Shown here one piece after another: positions 44,410 through 63,798 of a stretch of DNA of 64,000 nucleotides. Position 1 is the stretch's first letter; the number at the start of each line of letters is the position of its first letter. The DNA comes from a virus (taxonomy: Duplodnaviria > Heunggongvirae > Uroviricota > Caudoviricetes). The notes beneath the pieces are model-generated. The model ran no database searches. It was not told where the DNA came from and saw only the letters and a list, made by a program, of their open reading frames with translations. A program made the position numbers and the translations under genes. The stretch is taken from IMG/VR virus record IMGVR_UViG_3300046820_001896, one strand, 5' to 3'.

Positions 44410-47400
44410 ATGTCACTGAAGATTTTTTCACAAGCTCCTTACAACGATGACTACGATGAAACGAAGAAATATCTTCGTATGTTGTTTCGTCCAGGAGTTT
44501 CATTACAGGTACGAGAGTTAAATCAGCTACAAACTTATCTGCAAACTCAAATTCAGCGTTTAGGTTTACATTTATTTAAAGAAGGCTCAATGGTCATTCC
44601 AGGTCAAACTGCGATTGACACAAAAATTGTATATTTAAAAATTCAACCTGAAACAAACGGCGTTGAAATTAGTACTATTCTTGCAGATTTGGTTGGTAAG
44701 ACTATTACCGGTGCTAGCGGTGTACAAGCTCAGGTTCTTACATACGCTGCAGAAGAAGATACAGATCCTATTACATTATTCGTGCGTTATGTTGCATCTT
44801 CTGATGATGAAGAAACAAAAACATTTTCTGCCGAAGAATTATTAACTACTACTATCGATAGTGAAGAATACACATTACAAATTCTTCCATCGACTGATAC
44901 TCCAGTTGGTTTTGGTTCTATTGCATCTATCGAAGCTGGTGTTTATTTTATTAAGAGTCAATTTGTACAAGTTGATTCTGCTACAATCATTCTTTCTAAA
45001 TATAGCAATACACCGACATATCGAGTTGGTTTATTGGCAACAGAAAACATTGTAACATCTAATTCTGATGCTTCACTAAATGACAACGCCAATGGTTCTC
45101 CAAATGAGAATGCTCCTGGTGCTCATCGTTACCAATTATTATTAACATTTGCAAAATTAGCAGTTGATTCAGAATTAGACGAAAACTTTATTGAATTACT
45201 TCGTATTGAAAATGGTGAACTAAAGAGTAAAGTAGAAACATCTACATATTCTGAACTTGCTAAAACATTAGCACGTCGTACATTTGACGAATCTGGTAAC
45301 TATACAGTTCGTCCATTCAAATTAGCAATTCGCGAACATCGTAATAACGATCGCGGGCAATGGCAAGCATTTACTGAATATCGTTTAGGTGACATTGTAA
45401 AGAGCGGTGATAATTATTTCACAGCTATGGAAACTGCTACGTCTGGTAGTATCGAACCAGCTACTACTTTCTCTGAAACAAATCCATATCAAATCTATTC
45501 AGATAATAACATGGATTGGAACTATACTCCACGACCATCGTTTAATCGTGGTTACAAAACACCAGAAAACGGTGGTTCAGAATCTTCATTTGCAGTTGCT
45601 ATTGAACCTGGTAAAGGTTATGTACAAGGTTATGAAATCGAGAAGATTGCTACTGAATTCTTAGAAGTTCCTAAGTCAAGAGAATTTGCACGCATTGATA
45701 GTGATTCAATCGATATCAAGTACGGAAACTATGTTTATGTTTCTAACGTACGTGGTGTACCTGATTGCACAACATATCCAACAATCACTTTATACGATCA
45801 ATTAACTCCATCAACAAATTCTCAAGCTTCTGGTGCAGGTAATGCGATTGGTACCGCTCGTCTTCGTGCATTCGAATATGATTCAGGTACTCCTGGTGCA
45901 TCTGCAGTTTATAAAGCATATTTGTTCGACCTTCAAATGGAAGCTGGTTATACATTTGAACGTGATGTTAAACAATTCTTTTATGATTCAGGAACAACAT
46001 TAAGCAACTTCGTTGCAGATGTTTCACAAATTTATACTACATTAAGCGGTACAGTTAGCGGATCATCTACAACTGTTACAGGCGTTGGTACAAAGTTTAC
46101 AACTGAATTAAAAGTTGGAGATTATATTCGTGTTGAAGATTCTGCTGGAGCATTAGAAGTTCGCAGAGTTACTTCAATCACAAATAACACAACACTTGCT
46201 ATTGCTTCTGCTTTTAGCGGTACAGTTACTGGTAAAACATTTCAACGTGTGATGACACAAGTGCAAGATCCAAGTTTCACTGGATTGATTTTCCCTCTTG
46301 CACAATCATTTATTCGCAAAGTTCGTGGTGGTGAAAATGATGCTACATTTGCAACATCATACACAACTACACAAAAATTCACAGGTTCTACTTCATCAGG
46401 TCAATCAACACTGACAATTTCAGTTGGTGCTGCATCTGGTGCAACAACTCTTGGTACAGAATTTAATCCTTCAGCAAATAAAAATGAATTCGTTGTAATT
46501 AATAGATCAACTGGACGTCCAGTTAATCCAACTGCAATTAATTTATTAAATAATGGCGCGGATGCACAAATTACTGGTTTAAGTCAATCTTCTTCATATA
46601 CTGTATTTGCTCCAGTTCGTAAAGCTGGCACAATTGCACAAGAAAAGAAGAAAACACTTGTAAGCAATGCAGTAAAAGACTTCACTTCTATTGGTGCAGT
46701 TCAACCATTAACATTGTCTCTTGGTAAAGCTGACGGCTATCGCATTGTTGCTATTCGCATGAAGAATAGCGGATTCACTGCATCATCTAATCCAACTGAA
46801 ACTACTGATATTACTGATTGGTACACATTTGATAATGGTCAACGTGAAACACACTATGATGTAGCTACAATCACACGTAAACCTGGATATCCAGTTCCAA
46901 AGGGTGCTGTTCGTGTAATTTTTGATTATTTCGATCACACAGCTGGTACTGCCGGTGACTACTTTACAGTAGACTCATATTCAGATATTCCATTTGAAAA
47001 TATTCCATACTTCACGCCTGCTGGTGGCATGATTGCTCTTGCTGATGTTATGGATTTCCGTCCACGTATTAATGATGTTGGTACAGGTTATAGTAGCACA
47101 GGTGCTTCTCCATCAGAGTTGCCAAAACTTGGATTTGAAACAATTGCAAGTTACTCACACTATCTTGCACGTCGCGATAAATTAGCATTAGATATCGAAG
47201 GCAGATTCTTTACAATTTCTGGTGTAGCAAGTACTGCTCCGCAAGAACCAAAAGATCCAGCTCTTGGAATGATGTTAGCTAAGTTAAATGTTTCTCCATA
47301 CACAGCTTTCCCAAGCGATGGTTCTGTTACAATTGAAACTATCGATACTAAACGTTACACAATGCGTGATATCGGTAAGTTAGATAAGCGTATCGAAAAC

Positions 47401-50400
47401 TTAGAATACTACACAGCGCTTTCATTGTTAGAAAACGAAACAAAATCTCTTGCAATTAAAGACGATGTTGGCTTAGAACGTTTCAAAAATGGTTTCATTG
47501 TCGATAATTTCAAAGGTCAAGACTTAGGTGACGTAGCTTCTATTGACTATCGTTGCTCTATCGATATGACTGCACAAGAATTACGTCCATTTTACACAAT
47601 GGATAACGTAAACCTTGTTGAAGAAAACCAGATTAATGCTGATAGAACTTCTGACGGTTACCAATTGACAGGCGATATCATCACATTGCCATATACACAC
47701 TTTAAGTTTATCACTCAACCATTTGCGTCACGCACTGAGAACGTTAACCCATTTGCGGTGTTTACATTCTTAGGTCAAATGTCATTGAATCCACCATCTG
47801 ATGATTGGTTTGAAACAGATCGTCGTCCAGATATTATTACAAACGTAGAAGGTAACTTCTCTGCTGTACAAACACAACTTGAAAAACAAGGTGTTCTTGG
47901 CACAGTGTGGAATGCATGGCAAACAACATGGACAGGTCAAACACGTAATATTGATCGCTTAGTTGTTTCACGTGGCTTCGATAGTACAAACTATGGTCTT
48001 GGCGCTGGTCGTTGGATGGATCGTCGTACATTTACTGCTGCTGAACTTCGTGCTATTGGTGGTGATGCTCCATCATTTGGTAATGGTGCTGCTGGTGCTC
48101 GTGTATTGACATTCCAAACACAAGCTACAACAATTGGACAATCACGTTCAGGTATCACAACATCTGTTGTTCCTAAGGTAGACTATGAAGTTGTTGGAGA
48201 TAAAGTTCTTCAAACTTCTGTTATTCCTTACATTCGTGCACGTGAATTATTATTTGTTTGCCGTGGTTTAAAACCTAACACTAAATTAAATCCATTCTTT
48301 GATGATGCATCTATTCAAGCATATGTAACTCCTGCTACTCGTCTTCCAATTACTCAAAATGGTTCATTAGAATTCGATACAGAAACTAATGCTGGTGCGG
48401 CAGCAAATGACATTGGTCGTCAAGTTGGTGGTAAACCAGAAGTATCATTCAACAAGGGTGATGTTGTGTATGTTAAAACGCGTGGTGGTACAACATACAA
48501 CTCACAAGTAACATCGCCAGCTCGTGGTGTTGCAGTGTTGAAAGAAAAAACTACTGACACTGGTGCAGAAGCTGTTTATGTTCTAAACGTAACTGGTACT
48601 TTCCAAGGTGGAGACGTTATCAAAGGTTCTCTATCAGGTGCTGAATATATTATTCAAGGATCTGGTTCAATTGCTACTGCAACTCAAGGTTCAAACTTAG
48701 TAACTAACTTTAACGGTAACTTAGCTGGTGTATTCTCAATTCCAAATACAGATAGCATGCGCTTCCGTACAGGTGTTCGTGAATTTAAGTTAAGCGATAG
48801 CGTAACTGGTGGTAACGATTTTACAACACAAGGTCGTGGCACATATCGTGCTCAAGGTACATTAGAAACTAAACAGCGTTCTGTTAATGCTGTGCGTAAC
48901 TCTGAAATTGTTACACGTCCTGCATCAGAAACACGTACACAAGAGATCTTCTCTCCTGAACGTATCGTACGTGATACTGGTTGGTATGACCCTCTTGCCC
49001 AAACTATTATGATTGGTTCTAAGGGCGGTGCATTCTTAACTAAAGTTGATATCTTCTTCTCTACTAAAGATGCAAACATTCCAGTTAACTTACAAATTCG
49101 TGAATCTGTAAACGGTTACCCAGGTCCAGGTATTCTACCTTTCTCTAAGGTTACATTAAACCCAGATCAAATCATAACATCTAATGATGCATCTTTAGCA
49201 ACTACATTTACATTTGAATCTCCAGTTTATGTTCAAGACGAGACTGAATACTGTATCGTTCTTCTATCTGATTCAAACAACTATCGTGTTTGGATTTCAC
49301 AACTTGGTGAAAAAAATATTGGTACAGATCGTTTCATCTCTGAACAACCATACGCAGGTGTATTGTTTAAATCACAAAACGCTTCTACATGGACTGCTAA
49401 CCAAGAACAAGATTTGAAGTTCACAGTATATCGTGCTGAGTTTAATACAAACACAGAAGGCGTGGCTACATTCACTAATGATATCCTTCCTCCTGCTGTA
49501 TTAGATGGAAATCCATTTAAGACAACACTAGATTCGTCTAAGGTTCGTGTATCACATCGTAATCACGGCATGCCAGCAGGTTCAACAGTAATCATTTCTA
49601 ACGTTGCAGATGGAGACTATAACGGTATCGTTACAACATCTACTTCTGGTCTAAACGGTGAATTCATTATTAGCAACCCAGAACCAGATTCATATGTTAT
49701 CGATACTGGTACTGATGCTGATGCAACTGGTTTTGTTGGTGGTACAGATGTGGTTGTTTCTGAGAACGTTCCAATGGATGCTGCTCAGTTAATTACTCAA
49801 TCACAAACATTCTCTGACACAACATTATCATATGAAATGTTGACAACAGATTTATCATATAATCTTGCGACTGAAGCAACTAGCGTAATTCCAAATGAAA
49901 CAGTATACTTTGGCACATCTCAACAAGTTGCTTCTGCTATTAACGAAGAAACTGCTACTCCATTAAATGGTTCAAAGTCATTGAAAGTTATTGCAAGATT
50001 GAATACAGATAATTCTGCATTATCTCCAATCATTGATACTTCACGCTTATCAGTTGCAACAATCAAAAACCGTGTTGATAATTTCACATACGCTACTAAG
50101 AACGTTGCAGGTTTAGATGATATCATCGTAGCAGATGCAATTTCTGGTTTCACTTTCGATTCTGGAAGCCCTGGTACAATCTTTGTTCCAAGTACAGCAA
50201 GATCTGCGGTGCGTTCTATCACAGTTGGAAAATATGTTTCTGTAAGTGGTACAACAAGCAATAACACAACAATTCCTGTGTTAGTCACAGCAGTTGCAGC
50301 AAATGGTTCATCAATCACGACTAATTATGCTGGATTTACAACAGAATCTCCAGCAAATACTACTATCACATTGAAAGATAATTTCATCGATGAAAGTGTA

Positions 50401-50766
50401 CCAATTGGTGGTTCTGCGACATCTAAGTACTTAACTCGTTTAATTAACTTAGAACAACCTTCAACGTTCTTGAAAGTTATGTTCGCAGCAAACATTCCTG
50501 CGGTCACTGATTCAGACATTGAAGTTTGGTACAAGTTAATCCCAACTGGTACAAACGGTGATATCTCTCAACATTCATTTGTGCGTGCTACAACTCCTCT
50601 TAAGAACGTTAAGAGAACATCTAACCCAGACGAGTTCGTAGATGTACAATACGATTTGACAGATCTTCCAGCATTTGATGGTGTTGTTGTTAAGTTAGTA
50701 TTTAAGTCTGGCAATAGTGCTCAACCTCCACGCGTTAAAGAGTTGAGAGTAATTGCTTGTGCATAA
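44410..50766 (+). CDS. giant structural protein (2118 aa), probable baseplate/tail-fibre component
   Basis: Uninterrupted 6.36-kb ORF. Its N-terminus YLRMLFRPGVSLQVRELNQLQ resembles a conserved domain of phage structural proteins (recalled from memory). Ser/Thr/Gly-rich beta composition. Confidence 0.7.
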   Translation: MSLKIFSQAPYNDDYDETKKYLRMLFRPGVSLQVRELNQLQTYLQTQIQRLGLHLFKEGSMVIPGQTAIDTKIVYLKIQPETNGVEISTILADLVGKTITGASGVQAQVLTYAAEEDTDPITLFVRYVASSDDEETKTFSAEELLTTTIDSEEYTLQILPSTDTPVGFGSIASIEAGVYFIKSQFVQVDSATIILSKYSNTPTYRVGLLATENIVTSNSDASLNDNANGSPNENAPGAHRYQLLLTFAKLAVDSELDENFIELLRIENGELKSKVETSTYSELAKTLARRTFDESGNYTVRPFKLAIREHRNNDRGQWQAFTEYRLGDIVKSGDNYFTAMETATSGSIEPATTFSETNPYQIYSDNNMDWNYTPRPSFNRGYKTPENGGSESSFAVAIEPGKGYVQGYEIEKIATEFLEVPKSREFARIDSDSIDIKYGNYVYVSNVRGVPDCTTYPTITLYDQLTPSTNSQASGAGNAIGTARLRAFEYDSGTPGASAVYKAYLFDLQMEAGYTFERDVKQFFYDSGTTLSNFVADVSQIYTTLSGTVSGSSTTVTGVGTKFTTELKVGDYIRVEDSAGALEVRRVTSITNNTTLAIASAFSGTVTGKTFQRVMTQVQDPSFTGLIFPLAQSFIRKVRGGENDATFATSYTTTQKFTGSTSSGQSTLTISVGAASGATTLGTEFNPSANKNEFVVINRSTGRPVNPTAINLLNNGADAQITGLSQSSSYTVFAPVRKAGTIAQEKKKTLVSNAVKDFTSIGAVQPLTLSLGKADGYRIVAIRMKNSGFTASSNPTETTDITDWYTFDNGQRETHYDVATITRKPGYPVPKGAVRVIFDYFDHTAGTAGDYFTVDSYSDIPFENIPYFTPAGGMIALADVMDFRPRINDVGTGYSSTGASPSELPKLGFETIASYSHYLARRDKLALDIEGRFFTISGVASTAPQEPKDPALGMMLAKLNVSPYTAFPSDGSVTIETIDTKRYTMRDIGKLDKRIENLEYYTALSLLENETKSLAIKDDVGLERFKNGFIVDNFKGQDLGDVASIDYRCSIDMTAQELRPFYTMDNVNLVEENQINADRTSDGYQLTGDIITLPYTHFKFITQPFASRTENVNPFAVFTFLGQMSLNPPSDDWFETDRRPDIITNVEGNFSAVQTQLEKQGVLGTVWNAWQTTWTGQTRNIDRLVVSRGFDSTNYGLGAGRWMDRRTFTAAELRAIGGDAPSFGNGAAGARVLTFQTQATTIGQSRSGITTSVVPKVDYEVVGDKVLQTSVIPYIRARELLFVCRGLKPNTKLNPFFDDASIQAYVTPATRLPITQNGSLEFDTETNAGAAANDIGRQVGGKPEVSFNKGDVVYVKTRGGTTYNSQVTSPARGVAVLKEKTTDTGAEAVYVLNVTGTFQGGDVIKGSLSGAEYIIQGSGSIATATQGSNLVTNFNGNLAGVFSIPNTDSMRFRTGVREFKLSDSVTGGNDFTTQGRGTYRAQGTLETKQRSVNAVRNSEIVTRPASETRTQEIFSPERIVRDTGWYDPLAQTIMIGSKGGAFLTKVDIFFSTKDANIPVNLQIRESVNGYPGPGILPFSKVTLNPDQIITSNDASLATTFTFESPVYVQDETEYCIVLLSDSNNYRVWISQLGEKNIGTDRFISEQPYAGVLFKSQNASTWTANQEQDLKFTVYRAEFNTNTEGVATFTNDILPPAVLDGNPFKTTLDSSKVRVSHRNHGMPAGSTVIISNVADGDYNGIVTTSTSGLNGEFIISNPEPDSYVIDTGTDADATGFVGGTDVVVSENVPMDAAQLITQSQTFSDTTLSYEMLTTDLSYNLATEATSVIPNETVYFGTSQQVASAINEETATPLNGSKSLKVIARLNTDNSALSPIIDTSRLSVATIKNRVDNFTYATKNVAGLDDIIVADAISGFTFDSGSPGTIFVPSTARSAVRSITVGKYVSVSGTTSNNTTIPVLVTAVAANGSSITTNYAGFTTESPANTTITLKDNFIDESVPIGGSATSKYLTRLINLEQPSTFLKVMFAANIPAVTDSDIEVWYKLIPTGTNGDISQHSFVRATTPLKNVKRTSNPDEFVDVQYDLTDLPAFDGVVVKLVFKSGNSAQPPRVKELRVIACA

Positions 50767-51003: not shown

Positions 51004-52095
51004 ATGTCTGTCATAAACGTAAGTTTAGAAGATACATTCGAACAATGGAGAATTAAGACTAATCAGCTTGGTTCTACCATTGGTGATGCAGCTTCTCTTC
51101 AAACAACTTCAACAAATTTAGTTGCAGCAATCAATGAAGTTCGCAGTAATGCGGTCGTTGATGGTATCGTCACGACTTATGGCAATATATTTCAAATTAA
51201 TATTGATGAAGGCGATTCAGCTGAATTAATATTAGATTTGGACGGTAACTTAACATTAGCTGGTGATTTAATTGCTGACGTTACAGGTAACCTAAATGGT
51301 AATGCTAATACAGCAACGAAACTTCGTAATGGTCGTATTATCTCTATTACTGGTGATGCGACATGGGATGTAGTATTTGATGGATCTGCTAATGCAACCG
51401 GTCAATTGCAAATCAATCCAACAGGTGTTGTACCAGGAACATTTACTAAAGTTACTGTTGATGGAGATGGTAGAATATATGAAGGTTTTGATTTAGAAGA
51501 TACTGATGTTATTGCTGCTCTTGGATATACACCAGTAAGTGAAGATGCAGGTTATGATAATCCAAGTTGGCTGACTTCTATTAATGGTAATAAAATTAAT
51601 AGTGCAAGCAATATTACAATTGCTAACTTAACTGTTGGAAGTAGAGTATATCTTGGAAACGGTTCTGCAACTGCTCCAAGTATCGGGTTTTCTTCTGATG
51701 CTGCTCAAGATACTGGAATTTATTGGGGTGGAGATGGTTACACTTTCTTCACCAACAATGGTGTAAAAAGCGGTGAGATTCAACCTGGCGGAAACTTAGT
51801 GATGGTTGGTAACGTTGGTGGTTATTCAGATATTCGTCTTAAAAGGGATATTGAAACTATCAAAGGCGCTCTTGATATTGTTAATCAGTTAAGAGGCATC
51901 TATTATACGTCTATAGATACTAATGAACGTAGCGTTGGTGTTGTAGCTCAAGAAGTACAAAACAAAATTCCAGAATTAATTAGAGTTGGTGAAAATGGAA
52001 TGCTTTCAGTTTCATATGGAAACATGGGAGGTCTTCTTTTACAAGCTATCAATGAATTGACAGAGAGAGTAAAAGCTATCGAAGCTAAATTATGA
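51004..52095 (+). CDS. tail fibre protein with C-terminal intramolecular chaperone (peptidase S74-like) domain
   Basis: C-terminus YSDIRLKRDIETIKGALDIVNQLRGIYY ... GVVAQEV ... LLLQAINELTERVKAIEAKL matches the auto-cleaving chaperone domain of tail fibres. Confidence 0.7.
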   Translation: MSVINVSLEDTFEQWRIKTNQLGSTIGDAASLQTTSTNLVAAINEVRSNAVVDGIVTTYGNIFQINIDEGDSAELILDLDGNLTLAGDLIADVTGNLNGNANTATKLRNGRIISITGDATWDVVFDGSANATGQLQINPTGVVPGTFTKVTVDGDGRIYEGFDLEDTDVIAALGYTPVSEDAGYDNPSWLTSINGNKINSASNITIANLTVGSRVYLGNGSATAPSIGFSSDAAQDTGIYWGGDGYTFFTNNGVKSGEIQPGGNLVMVGNVGGYSDIRLKRDIETIKGALDIVNQLRGIYYTSIDTNERSVGVVAQEVQNKIPELIRVGENGMLSVSYGNMGGLLLQAINELTERVKAIEAKL

Positions 52096-52502
52096 CTTTA
52101 CAAACAACAGGATTAATCACTCTTAGAGATATAGCAAATGAGGCTGGGCAACCAACCTCATTTTCGCCTTCCCTATCGTGGGTTAAATCAATCGTAAAAC
52201 CCGCAAATAGACTTCCAACTAATGAGATTGACGATGTCTATGGATTTGCATATTTCCAAAAAAATTCTGAAGGCAACTGTGCTAACGGAAATTGTACAGC
52301 AAATTGTAATTGTGGAAATATTCAATGTACTAACTGCGCTATTACTGGAACAGTAAATTGTACAAACTGCGATACACAAGCTTGGTTACAACCAAATTGT
52401 AATTGTGCTTGCACATATAATTGTAACCAAACACAAATTAGCTATAACTGTGCGTGTGCTTGTGCATGCGCTTGTGCTTGTGCTGATGGTGGCGGTGGAT
52501 AA
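52092..52502 (+). CDS. Cys/Asn-rich precursor-like protein (about 75-aa leader plus about 60-aa core with 22 Cys, ending CACACACACACADGGGG)
   Basis: ATGA overlap with the tail-fibre stop. The core is built from NC.NC / C.NC repeats. It lies directly upstream of the radical-SAM/SPASM gene. Confidence 0.6.
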   Translation: MTLQTTGLITLRDIANEAGQPTSFSPSLSWVKSIVKPANRLPTNEIDDVYGFAYFQKNSEGNCANGNCTANCNCGNIQCTNCAITGTVNCTNCDTQAWLQPNCNCACTYNCNQTQISYNCACACACACACADGGGG

Positions 52503-52523: not shown

Positions 52524-53957
52524 ATGATATTTGAAATTTTAGCAGAACGCAGTGAAAAAGATAGAAAAACATTTTTTTACGATAATATAAAAAATGTCTT
52601 ATCTTCAGAGGATGGTTTCATATTTAGTGTGGAAAATAAAAAAACACACAATCATATTGCTATACCATTTTCTAAAAAATCCCCATTGAAAAAATCAAAG
52701 AATATTACAAAACTAAAGATCCAAATGGGTCTTTCGTGTAACTATTCTTGCGACTATTGTTCTCAAAAGTTTGTTGGTCGTCCACCAGAAACCAATAAAA
52801 AAGACATTGATGACTTTATGAAAAAGTTAGAGGTGTTAGAATTCACAGAAGAACAAGGTTTATCAGTAGAATTTTGGGGAGGAGAGCCATTCGTTTATTG
52901 GAAAACTATGAAGCCTCTCGCAGAAGCTATTATGGAAAAGTTTTCTCATTGGAAAAATAGACCTAAGTTTTCAGTGATCACAAACGGTTCTATCTTAACA
53001 AGAGACATTTGTGCTTGGTTATATTACATGGGGTTTTATGTTTCAATTAGTCATGACGGTCCAGGGCAAAGTGTCAGAGGTCCTGATCCATTCGAAGACG
53101 AAGAAGCAAAAAAGATCGTATTAGAATTTTACAAAATAATGAAGCCACAAGGTAGAATTAGTTTTAATTCTATGCTTAATTCTAAAAATAAAAATCGGAA
53201 AGCAATTCACGAATGGTTTATCAATTTTACTGGAGATCCCGAAGTTCCTTTAGGAGAAGGTGCTTTAGTTGATGCATATGATTTAGATGGTATGAATAAT
53301 TCACTATCTACTAAAGAAGAACATTTTGAATTTAGAAGAAATTCTTTTAATGATATTAGATCGAATAATGGTTATATTGGATTTGGAACTATATTACAAA
53401 AAATAGATGGTTTTACTAATTCAGTGATGAATCAACTACCAGCTTCTGGATTAGGACAAAAGTGTGGAATGGATGATCAACATGTTTTAGCGATTGATAT
53501 GAAAGGCAATGTATTAACTTGTCAAAATGTATCTGCTGTTGAAACTGCAATGAATGGTGAATCTCATTTAGGCGGAAACTTAGATGACTACGATAATGTA
53601 GAGTTAAAATCTTCTACTCATTGGGCAAATAGAGAAGAGTGTTCAAAGTGCCCAGTTTTGCATCTATGCAAAGGTTCTTGTATGTTTTTAGATGGTCAGT
53701 TTTGGAAAACAACATGCGATAATGCTTATTCTGATAACATTTCACTTTTTGCTTTAGCATTCGAAAAGATGACATCAGGGTATATTCCATTGTACATAAA
53801 TAGTAATGAATTATCCCCAGAAAGAAAAGATATTTGGGGAACAATATTAAGCCATAAAGAAGAACCTACTAAAAAAATTATTCCTATTATTGCTGTAAGC
53901 GAAAAAACAGTATTAAATGATGTAGAAGTCTATACACAAGCAAAGGTAACACAATGA
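52524..53957 (+). CDS. radical SAM enzyme with C-terminal SPASM domain
   Basis: CNYSCDYC (Cx3Cx2C), GGEP and ITNGS motifs. SPASM Cys series CGMDD ... LTC ... CSKCPVLHLCKGSC ... C. Confidence 0.85.
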   Translation: MIFEILAERSEKDRKTFFYDNIKNVLSSEDGFIFSVENKKTHNHIAIPFSKKSPLKKSKNITKLKIQMGLSCNYSCDYCSQKFVGRPPETNKKDIDDFMKKLEVLEFTEEQGLSVEFWGGEPFVYWKTMKPLAEAIMEKFSHWKNRPKFSVITNGSILTRDICAWLYYMGFYVSISHDGPGQSVRGPDPFEDEEAKKIVLEFYKIMKPQGRISFNSMLNSKNKNRKAIHEWFINFTGDPEVPLGEGALVDAYDLDGMNNSLSTKEEHFEFRRNSFNDIRSNNGYIGFGTILQKIDGFTNSVMNQLPASGLGQKCGMDDQHVLAIDMKGNVLTCQNVSAVETAMNGESHLGGNLDDYDNVELKSSTHWANREECSKCPVLHLCKGSCMFLDGQFWKTTCDNAYSDNISLFALAFEKMTSGYIPLYINSNELSPERKDIWGTILSHKEEPTKKIIPIIAVSEKTVLNDVEVYTQAKVTQ

Positions 53958-54274
53958 TATTAATTGATGTAGAAAGTCAAAATTTGCCTGAATTAATTCG
54001 TTTATATAAGACTATTCCTTATGTTGTCCAAATAAGATGCAATAAAATATTAAGACAGCATTATAAAGATTTTGTAGGAGAAGATGGTTTGTATGTTGCA
54101 TGTTTAGTGCAGGTGAAGTCAGGCGAAGACAAATATTTAAAGTTTGAAGATATCTTATCTAAAGAGGTGTGGGATGATCCCATGCAATATCAATATTGTC
54201 TGCAGAATATGAAATTAAAAATAGATGATTACATAGAAAATGATGTTCTTCCAAAAACACCATATAGCGAGTAA
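53954..54274 (+). CDS. small protein, paralog A of tandem pair
   Basis: About 30% identity to the next ORF, including a shared C-terminal IDDYI.ND motif. ATGA overlap. Confidence 0.5.
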   Translation: MILIDVESQNLPELIRLYKTIPYVVQIRCNKILRQHYKDFVGEDGLYVACLVQVKSGEDKYLKFEDILSKEVWDDPMQYQYCLQNMKLKIDDYIENDVLPKTPYSE

Positions 54275-54276
54275 TT

Positions 54277-54573
54277 ATGGAAACACCTAATTTATTAACT
54301 TTAGTAAATCGTCTTAGACAAACTGAACATGTTACGCAAGTTAGATATCACCAAGTTTTAAAACAACGTTTTAGAGATTTAGTTGGAGTAGATGGTATTT
54401 CAATTGTATGTTTACTTACTAATAAAGCTAATCCTGAAAATTTTGTGAAAATTGTAACTATTTTAGAAGCTTCAGTAATTGAGAATTTAGAACGACATGA
54501 TGCTATCATAGAAGATATTAAAACAAGAATCGATGATTATATCATCAGAGATATAAGGCCACCAAAATTCTAA
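54277..54573 (+). CDS. small protein, paralog B of tandem pair
   Basis: Paralogous to the ORF at 53954-54274. Confidence 0.5.
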   Translation: METPNLLTLVNRLRQTEHVTQVRYHQVLKQRFRDLVGVDGISIVCLLTNKANPENFVKIVTILEASVIENLERHDAIIEDIKTRIDDYIIRDIRPPKF

Positions 54574-55307
54574 TGTTAACAGATCAAGAAATTAATGACT
54601 ATTACGATAGTCTTGTGCCAGTTATGCCAAGACCAGAAGATCGTGTCGTAGATATGTCATTTAAAAATACTAATACCAACATTCTAATATCTGCCGGTAG
54701 ATTATTAGCTGTTGCCAATTATTCTGCAAGCGTAAAAGCATTAGCAGAATTTAATAAATCTAATATTTTTACATTTCAATTAGTAGGAATGGAAGAACGT
54801 CCAAATTTATATTTTCAAAAAAATAAATGTTGGAGAATTCGTGTTACTGAAGATGGTAAAGCTTGGCAAGATTCGCCTAATATTGAATCAATCGAACAAT
54901 TATATGATTTTATTTTAATCTCTCAAAAAGCTGCAGTCTTAGATGTTATTCATCGTCGTTTAGATATGAATAGACGTAGAGAAATTAAAGCTGCACAAGG
55001 TCAAAATCACATCTATTTTGCAAAATATTTAGAAGCAAAAGAAATCCTTGAAAAAGGAATTACTGAAGATCCTATTTGTAAATATCCATTTGTTACTGGA
55101 TATGCTGATTTAGTCGGAATGGATATTGTAGAAGCATCTAAGCGCATTAAATTTAAGTATGAAACTCGTGCATCATTTTTAGCAGAAAATGAAACGCTTA
55201 GATTAAAATATACTGCATTCGTTAAACAGCAAACTACTCTGGAAGATTTAGGTGCTGTGTTAGAACAATTTAAAGCTGAAAGCACAAAGTACGGCGATTC
55301 ACTATGA
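54573..55307 (+). CDS. hypothetical protein (244 aa)
   Basis: taATG overlap. Confidence 0.5.
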   Translation: MLTDQEINDYYDSLVPVMPRPEDRVVDMSFKNTNTNILISAGRLLAVANYSASVKALAEFNKSNIFTFQLVGMEERPNLYFQKNKCWRIRVTEDGKAWQDSPNIESIEQLYDFILISQKAAVLDVIHRRLDMNRRREIKAAQGQNHIYFAKYLEAKEILEKGITEDPICKYPFVTGYADLVGMDIVEASKRIKFKYETRASFLAENETLRLKYTAFVKQQTTLEDLGAVLEQFKAESTKYGDSL

Positions 55308-56425
55308 GCACTATATTTTATAATAGTTATGATATCTTCGTAAATGAAGCATATCATGAAAAACGCAATCAAATTCCAGGTGGTCATGCATTTGGTGGTT
55401 ATTTTCAATTATTTTCTAGCAATATTACATCTATTGACAGAACGAATACATTTAGTATACCACTAAAGACTACTGTATTACCTCATCTTCAAATGCCAAA
55501 AATGAGAACATTCACTAAATCATTTAGTGATATTTGTGATGATAGAGCCATTGAATTGATGAATAAAGCTAAGACAGATAATCGTAAGATTGCGGTTATG
55601 TACAGCGGAGGAATTGATTCTACTGTTATTCTGTGTGCTTTATTAAAGAACTGCACAGAACAAGATTTAAAAAACCATGTAATTGTGCTTTTGACAGATC
55701 ATAGTATTTTAGAAAATCCTAATTTTTATAATGACTATATTATCAAAAAGTTTGAATGTGTTTCAAGTTATAGATTTCCATATTTCCTAGGGAATGATGA
55801 TTACATCGTAATTTCTGGTGAAAATGCAGATCAATTGTTTGGTTCACAAGTAGTTGCTAAATTTATTGCATATCGTTCGTTTGATTATTTGTTTACTCCA
55901 TTAGATCAAGCTGCTGGGGATATCATTGATTGGATGACTATGAAATTGCAAGATGAATATAAAAAATATGCGCCTTATTATTGGCAAATGTTTAGACATC
56001 TTTGCAATGCTGCTCCGATTCCTATTGATAACGTATATAAATTTTTCTGGTGGATTAACTTTACAAACAAATGGCAATCAGTATATGTTCGTATTTTACC
56101 ATACGCTAAAAATAGAAGTAATATTAAATTAGAAGATAATTACACTACGTTTTTCTGCCCGCAAGATTTCCAATTGTGGTCATTAAATAATCCAGATAAT
56201 CTAGTAAAAGAATCTTTAGATAATGTAAAATATATCGCAAAAGATTATATTTTAGATTTTAATGGAGATCAATCTTACTATAAAAAACCTAAGATTGGTA
56301 GCTTAACTAATATTGTGAAGCAAAAAGAAATTGTTATGTTATTAAATGATGATATGACATTTACAAATGACTACCCAGATAGTCAACACTGGAATGAAAC
56401 AAACACTTTTTCGGAGATGATGTAA
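55304..56425 (+). CDS. PP-loop ATP pyrophosphatase superfamily protein (QueC / Asn-synthetase-like adenylating enzyme)
   Basis: SGGIDS PP-loop inside IAVMYSGGIDSTVILCALL, near residue 100. Confidence 0.6.
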   Translation: MSTIFYNSYDIFVNEAYHEKRNQIPGGHAFGGYFQLFSSNITSIDRTNTFSIPLKTTVLPHLQMPKMRTFTKSFSDICDDRAIELMNKAKTDNRKIAVMYSGGIDSTVILCALLKNCTEQDLKNHVIVLLTDHSILENPNFYNDYIIKKFECVSSYRFPYFLGNDDYIVISGENADQLFGSQVVAKFIAYRSFDYLFTPLDQAAGDIIDWMTMKLQDEYKKYAPYYWQMFRHLCNAAPIPIDNVYKFFWWINFTNKWQSVYVRILPYAKNRSNIKLEDNYTTFFCPQDFQLWSLNNPDNLVKESLDNVKYIAKDYILDFNGDQSYYKKPKIGSLTNIVKQKEIVMLLNDDMTFTNDYPDSQHWNETNTFSEMM

Positions 56426-57069
56426 TGATTATTGAAAACAAGATTGATGTGCTAGATACGATGTATCCTTGTTATGCTGAAAAAGTAGTAAATGCATTAT
56501 ATCACTCTAAAGCATATTGTACATTATATGGATATATTATGTCAGGAGAAGTTACATTTCCTAATGGAAGTGTAGCTGTAGAAGGGCAATATTTTTGTTA
56601 TTGGACTGGTGAAGGTGATTCTATTAGAACTACTGGTGAAGTTTACATATTCACACGCTTTGGATTCAAAGGACAAAACACCATTGGTGGTCCAATTGAA
56701 GAAAGCGGTCGTTTAGTTTATATAGATTCTTGTTCTGATAGTTTATTGGTGTATCCTCCTAGAATGGGAGATCCATCTTTAAACTTATTACAATTTCCTT
56801 CTGCTGTCAAACAATCGTATCATATCCATCCGAGCATTAGACTTGGAGTAGTTGTAAAAGGTAAAGGATATGCTTGTATCAAAAAAGCATATGAAGAAGA
56901 ACAAATTGAATTAAAGCCAGGTGTTATGTTCTGTATAGAAGAAAGAGAACAACATCGTTTTATGACAACATACGATGAAATGACAGTTATAGCATTCCAT
57001 CCAGACGGTGATTGGGGTCCAACTGATCATAATCACACAATGTTAAACAGAACATATATTACGAAATAA
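56425..57069 (+). CDS. cupin-like protein
   Basis: Loose HIHPS ... G ... EEREQHRF pattern. Weak evidence. Confidence 0.35.
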   Translation: MIIENKIDVLDTMYPCYAEKVVNALYHSKAYCTLYGYIMSGEVTFPNGSVAVEGQYFCYWTGEGDSIRTTGEVYIFTRFGFKGQNTIGGPIEESGRLVYIDSCSDSLLVYPPRMGDPSLNLLQFPSAVKQSYHIHPSIRLGVVVKGKGYACIKKAYEEEQIELKPGVMFCIEEREQHRFMTTYDEMTVIAFHPDGDWGPTDHNHTMLNRTYITK

Positions 57070-63000: not shown

Positions 63001-63798
63001 ATGACAACACCATACGTTTTAGGTCAATCAGTAGGAGATTTTGAAAATTCTCCTGGCGTATATCTTTTTGCTTTGCGCCGCACAGAAGAAGGTGATTTAT
63101 ATCTTCTTAAAGTAAATTTAAATGATCCAAATGATTCAGCACAATTATTTGGTGACGATATGCCTGCAGAATTTGCAGACTATACATTTCCTGGCGACGA
63201 CTATTTCGATGGTCGTGACGAAGCCAGATTATTAGAATATAGTACAGATGATGTAAAATATGAGCAATGGAAATGGGAAGATTCAATTAGATCTTACTAC
63301 ATTGACACGGAAGGTAATTTTGTATTAGTTACTGGTGAAAATATTGAATTGCCAGCAATCGAAGATATACAAATTCCAACTGGTCATGAACAAACGTTTG
63401 ATATTGTTGGAGAAAACTTCAATATTAATTTATACGATAAACTAATTTCAATGGGTTGGAATGGTTTATCTGAAGTAACTGTGAATATTACTGGTAATAT
63501 CGGTTCTACGAATCCAGTAAAACCTGCATTATTGATCACTAAACAATTTAAGAATGGTTTGACGATCATAAATACAGGTAATATCATAGGATGTAACGGC
63601 AATTTACAACACGATCCTGTAGATAATAGATATAATGGCGTTGCTATTGTAGTTGAAACTACAGTTGATTCATTTACAAACAGCGGACTTGTCAAGGCTG
63701 GCTCATTTAATAGAGCTTACGCTAATGTTTTCAGAGGATTTAATAATATTGATTCTTGGCAAAACAACGGTGGATCTTGGATAGGTTACGACGATTAA
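63001..63798 (+). CDS. hypothetical structural protein
   Basis: ORF only. Confidence 0.45.
   Translation: MTTPYVLGQSVGDFENSPGVYLFALRRTEEGDLYLLKVNLNDPNDSAQLFGDDMPAEFADYTFPGDDYFDGRDEARLLEYSTDDVKYEQWKWEDSIRSYYIDTEGNFVLVTGENIELPAIEDIQIPTGHEQTFDIVGENFNINLYDKLISMGWNGLSEVTVNITGNIGSTNPVKPALLITKQFKNGLTIINTGNIIGCNGNLQHDPVDNRYNGVAIVVETTVDSFTNSGLVKAGSFNRAYANVFRGFNNIDSWQNNGGSWIGYDD

What the first reader, a model, noticed from the sequence alone, without database searches (positions are those of the whole stretch)
52300..52502. Cys/Asn repeat core and (Cys-Ala)6-Asp-Gly4 tail encoded by a TGTGC microsatellite
The C-terminal 60 aa of ORF 52092-52502 read CANGNCTANCNCGNIQCTNCAITGTVNCTNCDTQAWLQPNCNCACTYNCNQTQISYNCACACACACACADGGGG. 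Cys and Asn alternate regularly, which resembles ranthipeptide Cx(2-3)[D/N] donor-acceptor motifs. The tail is encoded by the tgtgcgtgtgcttgtgcatgcgcttgtgcttgtgct tract, a slippage-prone repeat that could vary in length between isolates. The roughly 75-aa N-terminal part would serve as a leader or docking domain.
Basis: seen in the sequence. Interest (0 to 1): 0.7.

Follow-up and report, generated by a model that had tools for sequence, protein, structure and literature searches.

The report
Radical-SAM-paired cysteine-repeat tail-fibre protein
This small phage protein ends in a run of alternating cysteines, a kind of tail that across hundreds of phage genomes sits at the far tip of tail-fibre proteins and always travels with a dedicated radical-SAM enzyme, which points to an undescribed enzymatic modification of the part of the virus that touches the host.

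Summary
ORF 52092-52502 encodes 136 aa, with 18 Cys all in the last 74 residues and a (Cys-Ala)6-Asp-Gly4 end.

It is not incidental low complexity and not a slippage-variable microsatellite. At least 182 distinct homologues keep the Cys/Asn pattern. Against 97%-identical relatives dN/dS is about 0.02, and the repeat tract shows 5-7 synonymous changes, no replacements and no indels.

The decisive context is the next gene, 52524-53957. It encodes a radical-SAM enzyme with a complete 7-Cys SPASM domain and lies beside the Cys gene in 89 of 89 loci, in either gene order.

Diverged homologues of that enzyme (40-48% identity) lie beside unrelated tail-fibre proteins that share only a C-terminal (Asn/X-Cys)n tail, in 62-68 of 69 loci. 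In the reverse direction, 34 of 34 C-terminal NCNCNCNC tails with enough flank have such an enzyme downstream. Some family members are fused to self-cleaving fibre modules (Peptidase_S74, Hint).

Best reading: a tail-fibre tip protein whose Cys-X tail, and probably its core, is cross-linked by the radical-SAM enzyme. Thioether bonds are my leading guess and are unproven. The ranthipeptide idea is partly right. The free-peptide, leader and microsatellite ideas are not supported. I found no published description.

The parts
52092..52502 (+). Cys/Asn-rich 136-aa protein: putative tail-fibre tip protein and substrate of the radical-SAM enzyme
   Evidence: ORF. Its ATG overlaps the stop of the upstream fibre gene (ATGA). 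165 and 121 homologue clusters found. dN/dS about 0.02. No Pfam, NCBIfam, PHROG or PDB family.
52092..52265 (+). N-terminal domain, aa 1-58 (MTLxxxGxIxxxDxxxExG...)
   Evidence: AlphaFold pLDDT 78-91. A phmmer search of 1.84 billion representatives finds it only in (truncated) family members. No fold match in the PDB.
52266..52448 (+). Cys/Asn core, aa 59-119, with 12 Cys and two CxxC pairs (C79/C82, C90/C93)
   Evidence: Invariant and near-invariant Cys/Asn columns. AlphaFold pLDDT below 50. dN/dS 0.01-0.03.
52449..52484 (+). (Cys-Ala)6 tail encoded by an imperfect TGTGCN hexamer repeat
   Evidence: Tandem Repeats Finder: period 6, 6 copies, 83% matches. Same unit number in L008-L010, L006, L037 and L021. 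5-7 synonymous and 0 non-synonymous differences. (Cys-X)n tails are the shared feature of all partners of this radical-SAM clade.
52485..52502 (+). Asp-Gly4 C-terminus and stop codon
   Evidence: Gly-Gly is the commonest ending of stand-alone family members (44 of 116).
52524..53957 (+). Radical-SAM enzyme with SPASM domain (477 aa), the putative modifying enzyme
   Evidence: PF04055 and TIGR04085 SPASM above cut-off. Invariant CX3CX2C (C72/76/79) plus 7 SPASM Cys. Closest solved structures are 8vpo, CteB and anSME. Adjacent to the Cys gene on the same strand in 89 of 89 loci. A GAGG ribosome-binding site lies in the 21-nt spacer.
53954..54274 (+). Small conserved partner protein, first of two paralogous halves (106 aa)
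54277..54573 (+). Second paralogous half (98 aa)
   Evidence: 31% identical to 53954-54274. The two are fused into one ORF in L006 and L021.
54573..55307 (+). 244-aa protein of unknown function, cassette-associated
   Evidence: Present after the partner protein in L009, L010, L021, L033, L039, L049 and L080. No family match.
55304..56425 (+). PP-loop ATP-pyrophosphatase-like protein (SGGIDS motif), a possible accessory tailoring enzyme
   Evidence: Weak PF01171, TilS and Asn-synthase matches. Found with Gly-terminated tails in 7 loci.
56425..57069 (+). Cupin-fold protein, a possible accessory oxygenase
   Evidence: PF07883 E 4e-6. Syntenic in L006, L021 and L080. 2OG/cupin oxygenases recur next to the radical-SAM gene in unrelated lineages.
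51004..52095 (+). Tail-fibre protein with a C-terminal Peptidase_S74 intramolecular chaperone, translationally coupled to the Cys gene
   Evidence: PF13884 E 3e-11. PHROG distal long-tail-fibre families E 1e-31. The same arrangement occurs in a Paraburkholderia locus.
44410..50766 (+). 2118-aa DUF4815-type protein (I equate it with VrlC) that opens the host-recognition gene cluster; context only
   Evidence: The homologue in L006 carries PF16075 DUF4815. PMC7029224 describes tail fibres and radical-SAM cassettes downstream of VrlC in pelagimyophages.

Best explanation
ORF 52092-52502 encodes a small protein associated with the phage tail fibre and probably sitting at its distal tip. It has a folded 58-aa N-terminal domain, which I infer is the attachment or recognition module. 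This is followed by a 61-aa Cys/Asn-rich knob and a C-terminal (Cys-Ala)6 tail.

The co-transcribed gene 52524-53957 encodes a radical-SAM/SPASM enzyme. I propose that its substrate is this protein, and above all the Cys-X repeat tail.

Proposed mechanism, by analogy and not shown: the enzyme reductively cleaves SAM, abstracts a hydrogen atom from a backbone or side-chain carbon near each Cys, and joins the Cys sulfur to that carbon. The result would be multiple thioether staples, within chains and possibly between chains. These would lock the fibre tip in the reducing cytoplasm, where disulfides cannot form, and keep it stable outside the cell.

The window copy is one architecture of a large phage-specific system. 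In that system Cys-X tails end unrelated trimeric fibre proteins, and they are sometimes exposed by self-cleaving S74 or Hint modules.

Shown: a conserved gene, obligate pairing with the enzyme, tail-enzyme association in both directions, and tail-fibre context. Inferred: that the protein is the enzyme's substrate, that it is in the virion, and the chemistry.
For: 1. A real, strongly constrained protein. Invariant Cys/Asn columns. dN/dS about 0.02, and in the tail 5-7 synonymous, 0 non-synonymous and 0 indel differences at dS 0.6-0.9.

2. Pairing with the enzyme. A radical-SAM homologue lies within the fetched flanks (mostly adjacent), on the same strand in 85 of 85 loci holding the gene (L003-L087: 80 IMG/VR loci, 5 from protein look-ups) and 4 of 4 GTDB loci, with either gene first.

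3. The enzyme is a complete radical-SAM/SPASM protein with CX3CX2C and 7 invariant auxiliary Cys. Its nearest families and structures are peptide maturases, most of them thioether-forming: PapB, QhpD, CcpM, SCIFF maturase, CteB.

4. The tail is the common denominator.
   - Radical-SAM homologues at 40-48% identity lie 1.3-6 kb downstream of ORFs ending in (Cys-X)>=3 in 62 of 69 loci. Six of the seven misses have shorter tails, including the RSP15 side-tail-fibre ORF048, which ends NTNCQCGN.
   - None of these ORFs is homologous to the window family.
   - In the reverse direction, 34 of 34 C-terminal NCNCNCNC tails with at least 4 kb of flank have a radical-SAM gene downstream.

5. Fibre identity.
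   - The partners match PHROG tail-fibre families at E 1e-70 to 1e-81 and carry collagen repeats.
   - Achromobacter phage JWF gp028 is a fibre ending NCNCDCNCNCS, followed by a Hint domain, two genes from its radical-SAM gene.
   - 25 family members are fused to the Peptidase_S74 fibre chaperone at a ...CFW|SDDxLK junction, and one to Hint.
   - The window gene overlaps the stop of an S74 fibre gene and lies in the cluster after the giant DUF4815-type protein.

6. The family is essentially phage-specific: 153 confirmed stretches in IMG/VR against 4 in 185,579 species genomes.
Against: - No chemistry was observed. Every enzyme-family score is far below the curated cut-off (for example PapB 74 bits against 340), so the reaction type is a guess.
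- AlphaFold cannot model the Cys region (pLDDT below 50).
- About a fifth of the sampled family members (37 of 182) carry a C-terminal ~170-aa domain with a hydrophobic helix that looks membrane-associated. This is odd for a fibre protein.
- In some phages the pair lies among non-structural genes (L005, L012).
- No virion proteomics was available.
- No RiPP recognition element was found.
- Many loci come from related aquatic T4-like phages, so the counts are not phylogenetically independent. The association does, however, recur in siphovirus (JWF), RSP15 (classified in Ackermannviridae), Paraburkholderia and T4-like backgrounds.
Confidence: 0.55

Rival explanations
1. Metal-thiolate needle. 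In a trimer, the Cys faces of the (Cys-X)n beta-strands line the three-fold axis and bind metal ions or clusters, as His-x-His motifs bind iron in the T4 gp37 fibre tip. The two CxxC pairs of the core form a zinc-ribbon-like site. The radical-SAM enzyme would have another role, or only assist.
For: Alternating Cys puts all thiols on one face of a strand (read directly from the sequence). CX2CX7CX2C at C79-C93 and Cys-x-Cys motifs resemble metallothionein and zinc-ribbon spacing. Fusion to the S74 trimerisation chaperone and collagen-repeat partners imply trimers. The T4 gp37 HxH-Fe precedent is from my own knowledge.
Against: It does not explain the essentially obligate radical-SAM neighbour in both directions (89 of 89; 34 of 34). 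There is no metallothionein or other Pfam match even at E 10. The invariant Asn, Tyr109 and Trp/Leu/Gln motif are not metal ligands. Metal sites in fibres are not known to need a dedicated enzyme.
Confidence: 0.15
2. Phage-encoded free RiPP, either a ranthipeptide/sactipeptide-like toxin or a signal. The N-terminal 58 aa act as a leader, the modified Cys core is released at lysis, and it acts on competing cells or on the host.
For: A maturase-type radical-SAM/SPASM neighbour. Accessory tailoring-type genes vary with the tail type: a Trp halogenase with Trp-containing tails (11 of 14 against 0 of 44), 2OG oxygenases, a PP-loop enzyme. Some tailed ORFs are only 71-110 aa.
Against: No leader protease or exporter in any cassette. 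The N-terminal domain is folded and conserved. The add-on modules include self-cleaving fibre modules (Peptidase_S74, Hint) and are all at the C-terminus. The non-homologous partners are 200-555-aa tail fibres. The gene sits in the host-recognition cluster.
Confidence: 0.12
3. The radical-SAM enzyme changes the cysteines in some other way. It could oxidise them to formylglycine as anSME does, or desulfurise or methylate them. That would give a reactive or otherwise altered tip rather than cross-links.
For: anSME is among the solved relatives (E 1.5e-7). Only the Cys positions are invariant in the tails while X varies, so the chemistry centres on Cys.
Against: anSME is a weaker match than the peptide maturases 8vpo and CteB. 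There is no C-x-P/A-x-R sulfatase motif. The family has 7, not 8, conserved auxiliary Cys, whereas anSME fully ligates both auxiliary clusters (my own knowledge).
Confidence: 0.1
4. Incidental low-complexity or contingency microsatellite. The TGTGCN tract is a slippage-prone repeat with no specific protein function.
For: Tandem Repeats Finder detects a period-6 array. Tail length differs across the whole family (3-18 Cys), and one lineage carries a 4-unit CPVDCAC expansion.
Against: Unit number is identical in relatives at dS 0.6-0.9, with 5-7 synonymous and 0 non-synonymous changes. Codon usage inside the tract is mixed. The tails are conserved at the protein level in hundreds of loci.
Confidence: 0.02

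Closest known systems
Ranthipeptides and sactipeptides with their radical-SAM/SPASM maturases (PapB/freyrasin, CteB/thermocellin, SCIFF, NxxC peptides)
   Same: A Cys-rich ribosomal substrate encoded next to a radical-SAM enzyme with a 7-Cys SPASM domain. The repeated Cys motifs suggest several thioether rings. PapB, CcpM, the SCIFF maturase and CteB are among the enzyme's best matches.
   Different: All enzyme scores are far below the family cut-offs. The substrates are 90-555-aa phage proteins that retain their N-terminal parts. There is no leader protease, exporter or RiPP recognition element. The motif is a C-terminal strictly alternating Cys-X run. The system is encoded by phages in tail-fibre clusters.
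QhpD-QhpC (quinohemoprotein amine dehydrogenase gamma subunit)
   Same: A radical-SAM/SPASM enzyme that installs several Cys thioether cross-links inside a small structural protein subunit rather than a secreted peptide, in aerobic Proteobacteria. QhpD is the third-best NCBIfam match.
   Different: 68 bits against a 453-bit cut-off. QhpC has 4 Cys and Asp/Glu acceptors, carries a quinone cofactor and is exported. There is no similarity between the substrates.
HXS antiphage system (HxsA with His-Xaa-Ser repeats matured by HxsB/HxsC; PMC13128918)
   Same: A protein with a short repeated motif is matured by dedicated radical-SAM enzymes and acts in phage-host entry biology. HxsB is among the matches (E 3e-15).
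   Different: HXS is bacterial, defensive and periplasmic. Its repeat is HxS rather than CxC, and it uses two radical-SAM enzymes.
Metal-binding fibre and spike tips (T4 gp37 His-x-His iron needle, P2 gpV and phi92 gp138 apex). From my own knowledge.
   Same: An alternating ligand-type residue (x-His-x-His against x-Cys-x-Cys) at the extreme distal tip of a trimeric phage fibre.
   Different: Those sites self-assemble with metal and need no enzyme. Here a radical-SAM enzyme is an obligate partner.
C-terminal cystine knot of type III collagen, and Peptidase_S74 intramolecular chaperones of phage fibres. From my own knowledge.
   Same: A short Cys cluster at the C-terminal end of a trimer (collagen repeats in L116 and L132) would staple and register the three chains. 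S74 and Hint modules expose the tail by self-cleavage.
   Different: The collagen knot is made of disulfides formed in an oxidising compartment. Phage fibres fold in the cytoplasm, which is the rationale for an enzymatic sulfur-carbon link.

Membership tests
Ranthipeptide / PapB-type system | Adjacent radical-SAM enzyme with CX3CX2C and a SPASM domain | tested here: met
   PF04055 at 36.6 bits (cut-off 29.5). TIGR04085 SPASM at 35.3 bits (cut-off 27). Invariant 3+7 Cys. Adjacent in 89 of 89 loci.
Ranthipeptide / PapB-type system | Maturase scores as a member of a characterised maturase family (PapB, CteB/SCIFF, CcpM) | tested here: not met
   PapB 74.3 bits against 340. SCIFF maturase 44.3 against 425. 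CcpM 62.6 against 500.
Ranthipeptide / PapB-type system | Short precursor with a cleavable leader, plus a protease and/or exporter or a RiPP recognition element | tested here: not met
   58-aa folded N-terminal domain. No protease or transporter in the cassette. The conserved partner protein is not RRE-like.
Ranthipeptide / PapB-type system | Thioether from Cys sulfur to a non-alpha carbon of the acceptor (Asp, Asn, Thr and others) | not testable with these tools
   Needs mass spectrometry or NMR. The free variation of X in the tail argues, by inference, against a fixed side-chain acceptor there.
SCIFF (six cysteines in forty-five residues) | Precursor matches the SCIFF peptide family and pairs with the TIGR03974 maturase | tested here: not met
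   No NCBIfam hit for the Cys protein even at E 10. The maturase model scores 44 bits against 425.
Metallothionein | Small protein with about 20-30% Cys in C-x-C and C-x-x-C motifs | tested here: met
   24% Cys in the last 74 aa, with C-x-C and two C-x-x-C motifs.
Metallothionein | Recognised by a metallothionein family model, with no conserved aromatic residues | tested here: not met
   No Pfam match at E 10. Tyr109 is invariant and Trp98 is the consensus residue in the (W/Y/F)-L-Q motif; Leu99 and Gln100 are near-invariant.
Phage tail fibre with C-terminal intramolecular chaperone (Peptidase_S74) | S74 domain with the Ser-Asp-x-x-Leu-Lys cleavage motif directly after the fibre's C-terminal structural part | tested here: not met
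   The window copy ends in Gly4 with no S74 domain. 25 of 182 family members do carry it (junction CFW|SDDxLK), and the upstream window gene 51004-52095 has it.
Phage tail-fibre / host-recognition module | Encoded within the fibre gene cluster and co-oriented with fibre genes | tested here: met
   Flanked by the DUF4815-type giant protein, an S74 fibre and further structural ORFs. Partners in other lineages are PHROG tail fibres.
Phage tail-fibre / host-recognition module | Protein physically present in the virion | not testable with these tools
   No proteomic data found.
Contingency (slippage) microsatellite | Repeat-number polymorphism between close relatives | tested here: not met
   Same unit number in L008-L010 (97% aa identity) and in L006, L037 and L021. 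Only synonymous changes in the tract.

The most novel reading that the evidence does not exclude
Phage tail fibres carry a previously unrecognised, enzyme-installed covalent knot. A dedicated radical-SAM/SPASM enzyme would convert C-terminal Cys-X repeat tails, and in this family a whole Cys/Asn knob, into a ladder of sulfur-carbon cross-links, possibly between the three chains. That would make the receptor-contacting tip a RiPP-like hyper-cross-linked structure. It would be the first radical-SAM post-translational modification of a virion protein that I know of, and a new substrate class for SPASM enzymes. Lineage-specific extra tailoring is possible, for example halogenation of a terminal Trp.
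Probability: 0.4. Interest if true: 0.9.

Novelty: new variant of a known kind. Interest (0 to 1): 0.8.

Why it matters
If the enzyme-substrate relationship holds, radical-SAM "RiPP" chemistry is used by hundreds of phages to build or harden the structure that recognises the host, not to make a secreted peptide. I counted at least 439 and 153 confirmed stretches in IMG/VR for the two enzyme branches.

That would:
- explain the unexplained "radical SAM cassettes" noted in the host-recognition clusters of marine T4-like phages (PMC7029224);
- give structural virology a new way of stabilising fibre tips;
- give enzymologists a very simple portable recognition tag, a C-terminal (Asn-Cys)n run, for a new SPASM enzyme clade.

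It is directly testable in cultured phages. Achromobacter phage JWF (gp028 and gp030) and Ralstonia phage RSP15 (ORF048 and ORF045) both carry the pair.

Tried and rejected
- Megablast and tblastn of the locus and of the Cys protein against 50,697 phage records found nothing. BLAST's low-complexity filter is on, so the negative tblastn result is weak.
- Pfam, NCBIfam, PHROGs, PADLOC and PDB sequence searches with the Cys protein, its core or its N-terminal domain found no family.
- AlphaFold of the whole protein models only the N-terminal domain. A Foldseek search of the PDB gave no match.
- I tested whether the N-terminal domain occurs without the Cys core, using phmmer on 1.84 billion representatives. 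It returned only truncated family members and spurious repeat hits.
- I tested homology between the window family and the other Cys-tailed fibre proteins. hhalign probabilities were 44% and 54%, the latter over a 10-residue NCNCGxIxC motif only.
- JWF gp029 against window ORF 54573-55307 shows no similarity.
- The T4 late-promoter motif TATAAATA is not enriched and is absent near the gene.
- Nine literature searches and the papers read found no description of the system.
- The neighbouring Asp/Asn beta-hydroxylase might modify the Asn-rich core. However, it is reported as a core gene of pelagimyophages, so its synteny is not informative.
Full report
**1. The observation.**
All 18 cysteines lie in the last 74 residues (24% Cys, against 0.7% in 13 other ORFs of the window), and there are 11 Asn-Cys dipeptides. 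The final tract at 52449-52484 is an imperfect TGTGCN hexamer repeat (period 6, 6 copies, 83% matches). It encodes (Cys-Ala)6 and is followed by Asp-Gly4. Small corrections: the quoted string is 74 aa, not 60, and the Cys-free N-terminal part is about 58-62 aa, not about 75.

**2. It is a conserved protein family, not low complexity.**
- A search of 5.8 billion proteins gave 165 hits. A second search, with a fused domain, gave 121 more. IMG/VR holds 153 confirmed stretches.
- In a 60-sequence alignment spanning 47-80% identity, G61 N62 C63 N65 N67 C79 C82 C90 N92 C93 N104 Y109 N110 C111 C120 C122 C124 are invariant, and most other Cys/Asn are at least 90% conserved.
- No Pfam, NCBIfam, PHROG, PADLOC or PDB family matches.
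- The family is essentially viral. Only 4 loci turned up in one genome for each of 185,579 prokaryotic species.
- The window itself is an uncultured aquatic T4-like myovirus. Its baseplate wedge protein is 42% identical to that of Methylophilales phage Melnitz and 40% to Pelagibacter phage HTVC008M.

**3. The microsatellite idea fails.**
Three IMG/VR relatives with 97% protein identity (L008-L010) differ from the window at dS 0.6-0.9, yet dN/dS is about 0.02 for the whole gene. Inside the tail there are 5-7 synonymous differences, no replacements and no indels. More distant relatives at 64-66% identity also keep six Cys-X units. Tail length does vary over the whole family (3-18 Cys, median 6), and one lineage has a four-unit CPVDCAC expansion. 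That variation is deep divergence, not isolate-level slippage.

**4. The obligate partner.**
- Twenty-one bases downstream, behind a GAGG ribosome-binding site, lies a 477-aa radical-SAM protein (52524-53957).
- It has CX3CX2C and a full SPASM domain. C72/76/79 and C314/333/373/376/382/386/398 are invariant across 22 homologues down to 42% identity.
- Its best family matches are peptide maturases: PapB ranthipeptide, geopeptide, QhpD, CcpM, HxsB and the SCIFF maturase. All are far below the curated cut-offs.
- Its closest solved structures are 8vpo (cited in a paper on radical-SAM cyclopropyl synthases; I take it to be TvgB, which I did not confirm), CteB and anSME.
- A homologue of this enzyme accompanies the Cys gene on the same strand in 85 of 85 loci holding the gene (L003-L087: 80 from IMG/VR, 5 from protein look-ups) and in 4 of 4 GTDB loci. 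It is almost always adjacent, and either gene can come first.
- When the order is Cys then enzyme, a third small protein follows in 29 loci. In the window it is split into the paralogous ORFs 53954-54274 and 54277-54573. Its predicted fold is a generic alpha/beta sandwich, not a RiPP recognition element.

**5. The tail is what the enzyme clade has in common.**
- The cultured phages with the closest enzymes are Achromobacter JWF (44% identity) and Ralstonia RSP15 (45%). Both lack the window family.
- JWF gp028 is a tail fibre that ends ...KPRQNCNCDCNCNCS, followed by a Hint self-cleaving domain. RSP15 ORF048, annotated "side tail fiber", ends ...NTNCQCGN.
- I fetched 80 loci around a diverged enzyme branch (40-48% identity to the window enzyme; 439 confirmed stretches in IMG/VR).
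- In 62 of the 69 loci with at least 3 kb upstream, an ORF ends in (Cys-X)>=3 within 0-4 residues of its stop. It lies on the same strand, a median of 1.6 kb upstream. Six of the seven exceptions have shorter or variant tails.
- None of these ORFs is a detectable homologue of the window protein.
- They are tail fibres. They match PHROG tail-fibre families at E 1e-70 to 1e-81, two carry collagen triple-helix repeats, one is a Hint fusion, and one phage has three tandem ~95-aa paralogues each ending NCNCNC(A)CNC.
- The reverse test used an IMG/VR scan for DNA encoding NCNCNCNC, which returned 120 stretches. Of 121 in-frame readings, 57 place the motif within 6 residues of the stop of an ORF of at least 60 aa. 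All 34 of those with at least 4 kb of downstream flank have a radical-SAM homologue downstream on the same strand. Most of the rest lie in short reading frames with no gene-sized ORF, several on giant-virus contigs; a few are Cys-tailed ORFs with a slightly longer end.

**6. Architectures.**
Of 182 distinct family sequences, four architectures appear:
- 116 are stand-alone, ending mostly in Gly-Gly or Cys-Trp.
- 25 continue into a Peptidase_S74 intramolecular chaperone at a ...CFW|SDDxLK junction.
- 1 continues into a Hint domain.
- 37 continue into an unknown ~170-aa domain with a hydrophobic helix that occurs only in this fusion.

From my own knowledge (Schulz et al. 2010), S74 chaperones drive trimerisation of fibre and spike proteins and then cut themselves off. 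In those proteins the mature C-terminus would therefore be the Cys-X tail of a trimer.

In the window the gene's ATG overlaps the stop of an S74-bearing fibre gene (51004-52095), downstream of the 2118-aa DUF4815-type protein. I equate that protein with VrlC. The pelagimyophage literature calls the region downstream of VrlC the host-recognition cluster, and has noted unexplained "radical SAM cassettes" there. The same fibre-then-Cys-gene-then-enzyme order occurs in a Paraburkholderia locus.

**7. The N-terminal domain.**
AlphaFold models residues 1-58 confidently (pLDDT 78-91) and the Cys region not at all. Whether it docks the enzyme, attaches to a fibre, or does both cannot be decided here. 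It is not a classical leader: nothing in the cassette would remove it, and every extra module sits at the other end of the protein.

**8. Mechanism.**
*Shown:* a constrained protein, an obligate radical-SAM/SPASM partner, a two-way tail-enzyme association across non-homologous fibre proteins, and tail-fibre context.

*Inferred:* the enzyme modifies the cysteines of the tail, and probably of the core. My leading guess is thioether cross-links, for four reasons:
- Several of the enzyme's best family matches (PapB, QhpD, CcpM, SCIFF maturase, among geopeptide, HxsB and others) and one of its two closest solved structures, CteB, are thioether-forming.
- The SPASM region has seven, not eight, invariant Cys. 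In CteB an open auxiliary-cluster site binds the substrate thiolate (my own knowledge). This is a weak argument.
- Phage fibres fold in the reducing cytoplasm, where 18 thiols could not form disulfides.
- A covalent knot at the C-terminal end of a trimer has a precedent in the cystine knot of collagen III.

Because X in the tail varies (Ala 391, Asn 219, Asp 138, Gly 52, Trp 44 occurrences), an alpha-carbon acceptor, or inter-chain links, seems more likely than a fixed Asp/Asn beta-carbon.

Rivals are a metal-thiolate needle analogous to the T4 gp37 HxH-iron tip, a free RiPP, and other Cys chemistry such as formylglycine. They are weighed in the rival list. None of them explains the pairing and the fibre context together as well.

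**9. Comparison and novelty.**
The system works like ranthipeptide/sactipeptide or QhpD-QhpC systems but fails their membership tests. Maturase scores are sub-threshold, and there is no leader, protease, exporter or recognition element. I found no paper describing Cys-X tails on phage fibres or their radical-SAM partner. I therefore rate it a new variant of a known kind. The enzyme superfamily and the pairing logic are known. The substrate class, the motif and the biological setting are new.

**10. Limits.**
- There is no chemical or proteomic evidence.
- Many loci come from related aquatic phages, so the counts are not independent. The association does recur in at least four unrelated phage backgrounds.
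- The membrane-like fusion domain, and the loci outside structural modules, do not fit the virion model and remain unexplained.

Noticed in passing
L041, L044, L047, L048, L050, L059, L061, L067-L072, L077, L078, L081 (relatives; not in the window): A flavin-dependent Trp-halogenase-family gene (PF04820, E 4e-97, with GxGxxG and WxWxIP motifs) is present in loci for 11 of 14 distinct tails that contain or end in Trp (for example ...CACACW). It is present in 0 of 44 tails without Trp. This suggests halogenation of the terminal Trp. It may reflect a single clade and is not phylogenetically corrected.
   Followed up: partly
L011-L020 and others, for example L012 5206-6108: About 300-aa family members carry a C-terminal ~170-aa domain (junction NCNCACNC|SKIICAKLYEFG) with a hydrophobic, membrane-like helix. 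The domain has no Pfam or PHROG match and was found only fused to this Cys domain. In these loci the radical-SAM gene lies upstream of the Cys gene.
   Followed up: partly
window 53954-54274 and 54277-54573: Two adjacent small ORFs are 31%-identical paralogues. They correspond to the two halves of a single ~220-aa ORF in relatives (L006 11865-12530). So this is either a gene split or a tandem domain, and it always lies directly after the radical-SAM gene.
   Followed up: yes
window 55304-56425 and 56425-57069: A PP-loop ATP-pyrophosphatase-like protein (SGGIDS motif; weak TilS and Asn-synthase matches) and a cupin-fold protein travel with Gly-terminated tails in seven loci. They may be accessory tailoring enzymes. 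The function was not resolved.
   Followed up: partly
L039 6001-6483 (also P0060, P0100): The tail is expanded by four tandem CPVDCAC(N/D) units, giving 18 Cys in the tail. This is the only clear repeat expansion seen in the family.
   Followed up: no
L186, L238, L254, L194, L280: Very small ORFs (67-82 aa) end ...HTH(I/L/V)F(F/Y)DDY(S/G)T(A/N)CNCNCNC.... For L186 and L238, which have enough flank, a distant radical-SAM gene (25-27% identity) lies 5-7 kb downstream. These look more like classical RiPP precursors than fibres.
   Followed up: no
L095 4973-5560, 7309-7947, 9280-10256; L005 12797-14103: 2OG-Fe(II) oxygenase genes (PF13759 / PF13640; L095 7309-7947 and L005 12797-14103 by Pfam, the others my reading of weak or untested matches) flank the radical-SAM gene in lineages unrelated to the window phage. 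A cupin occupies a similar place in the window. An oxygenase may be a fourth component of the system.
   Followed up: partly
L001 7436-12283 against window 44410-50766: In Ralstonia phage RSP15 the radical-SAM gene sits directly upstream of a 1615-aa homologue of the window's 2118-aa DUF4815-type protein. The association with this giant host-recognition protein therefore recurs in a phage classified in Ackermannviridae.
   Followed up: no
window 63001-63798: This 265-aa ORF is syntenic with an L006 gene whose product carries PF05268 (GP38, T-even adhesin family). The region from 51 to 64 kb is therefore bracketed by host-recognition genes.
   Followed up: no
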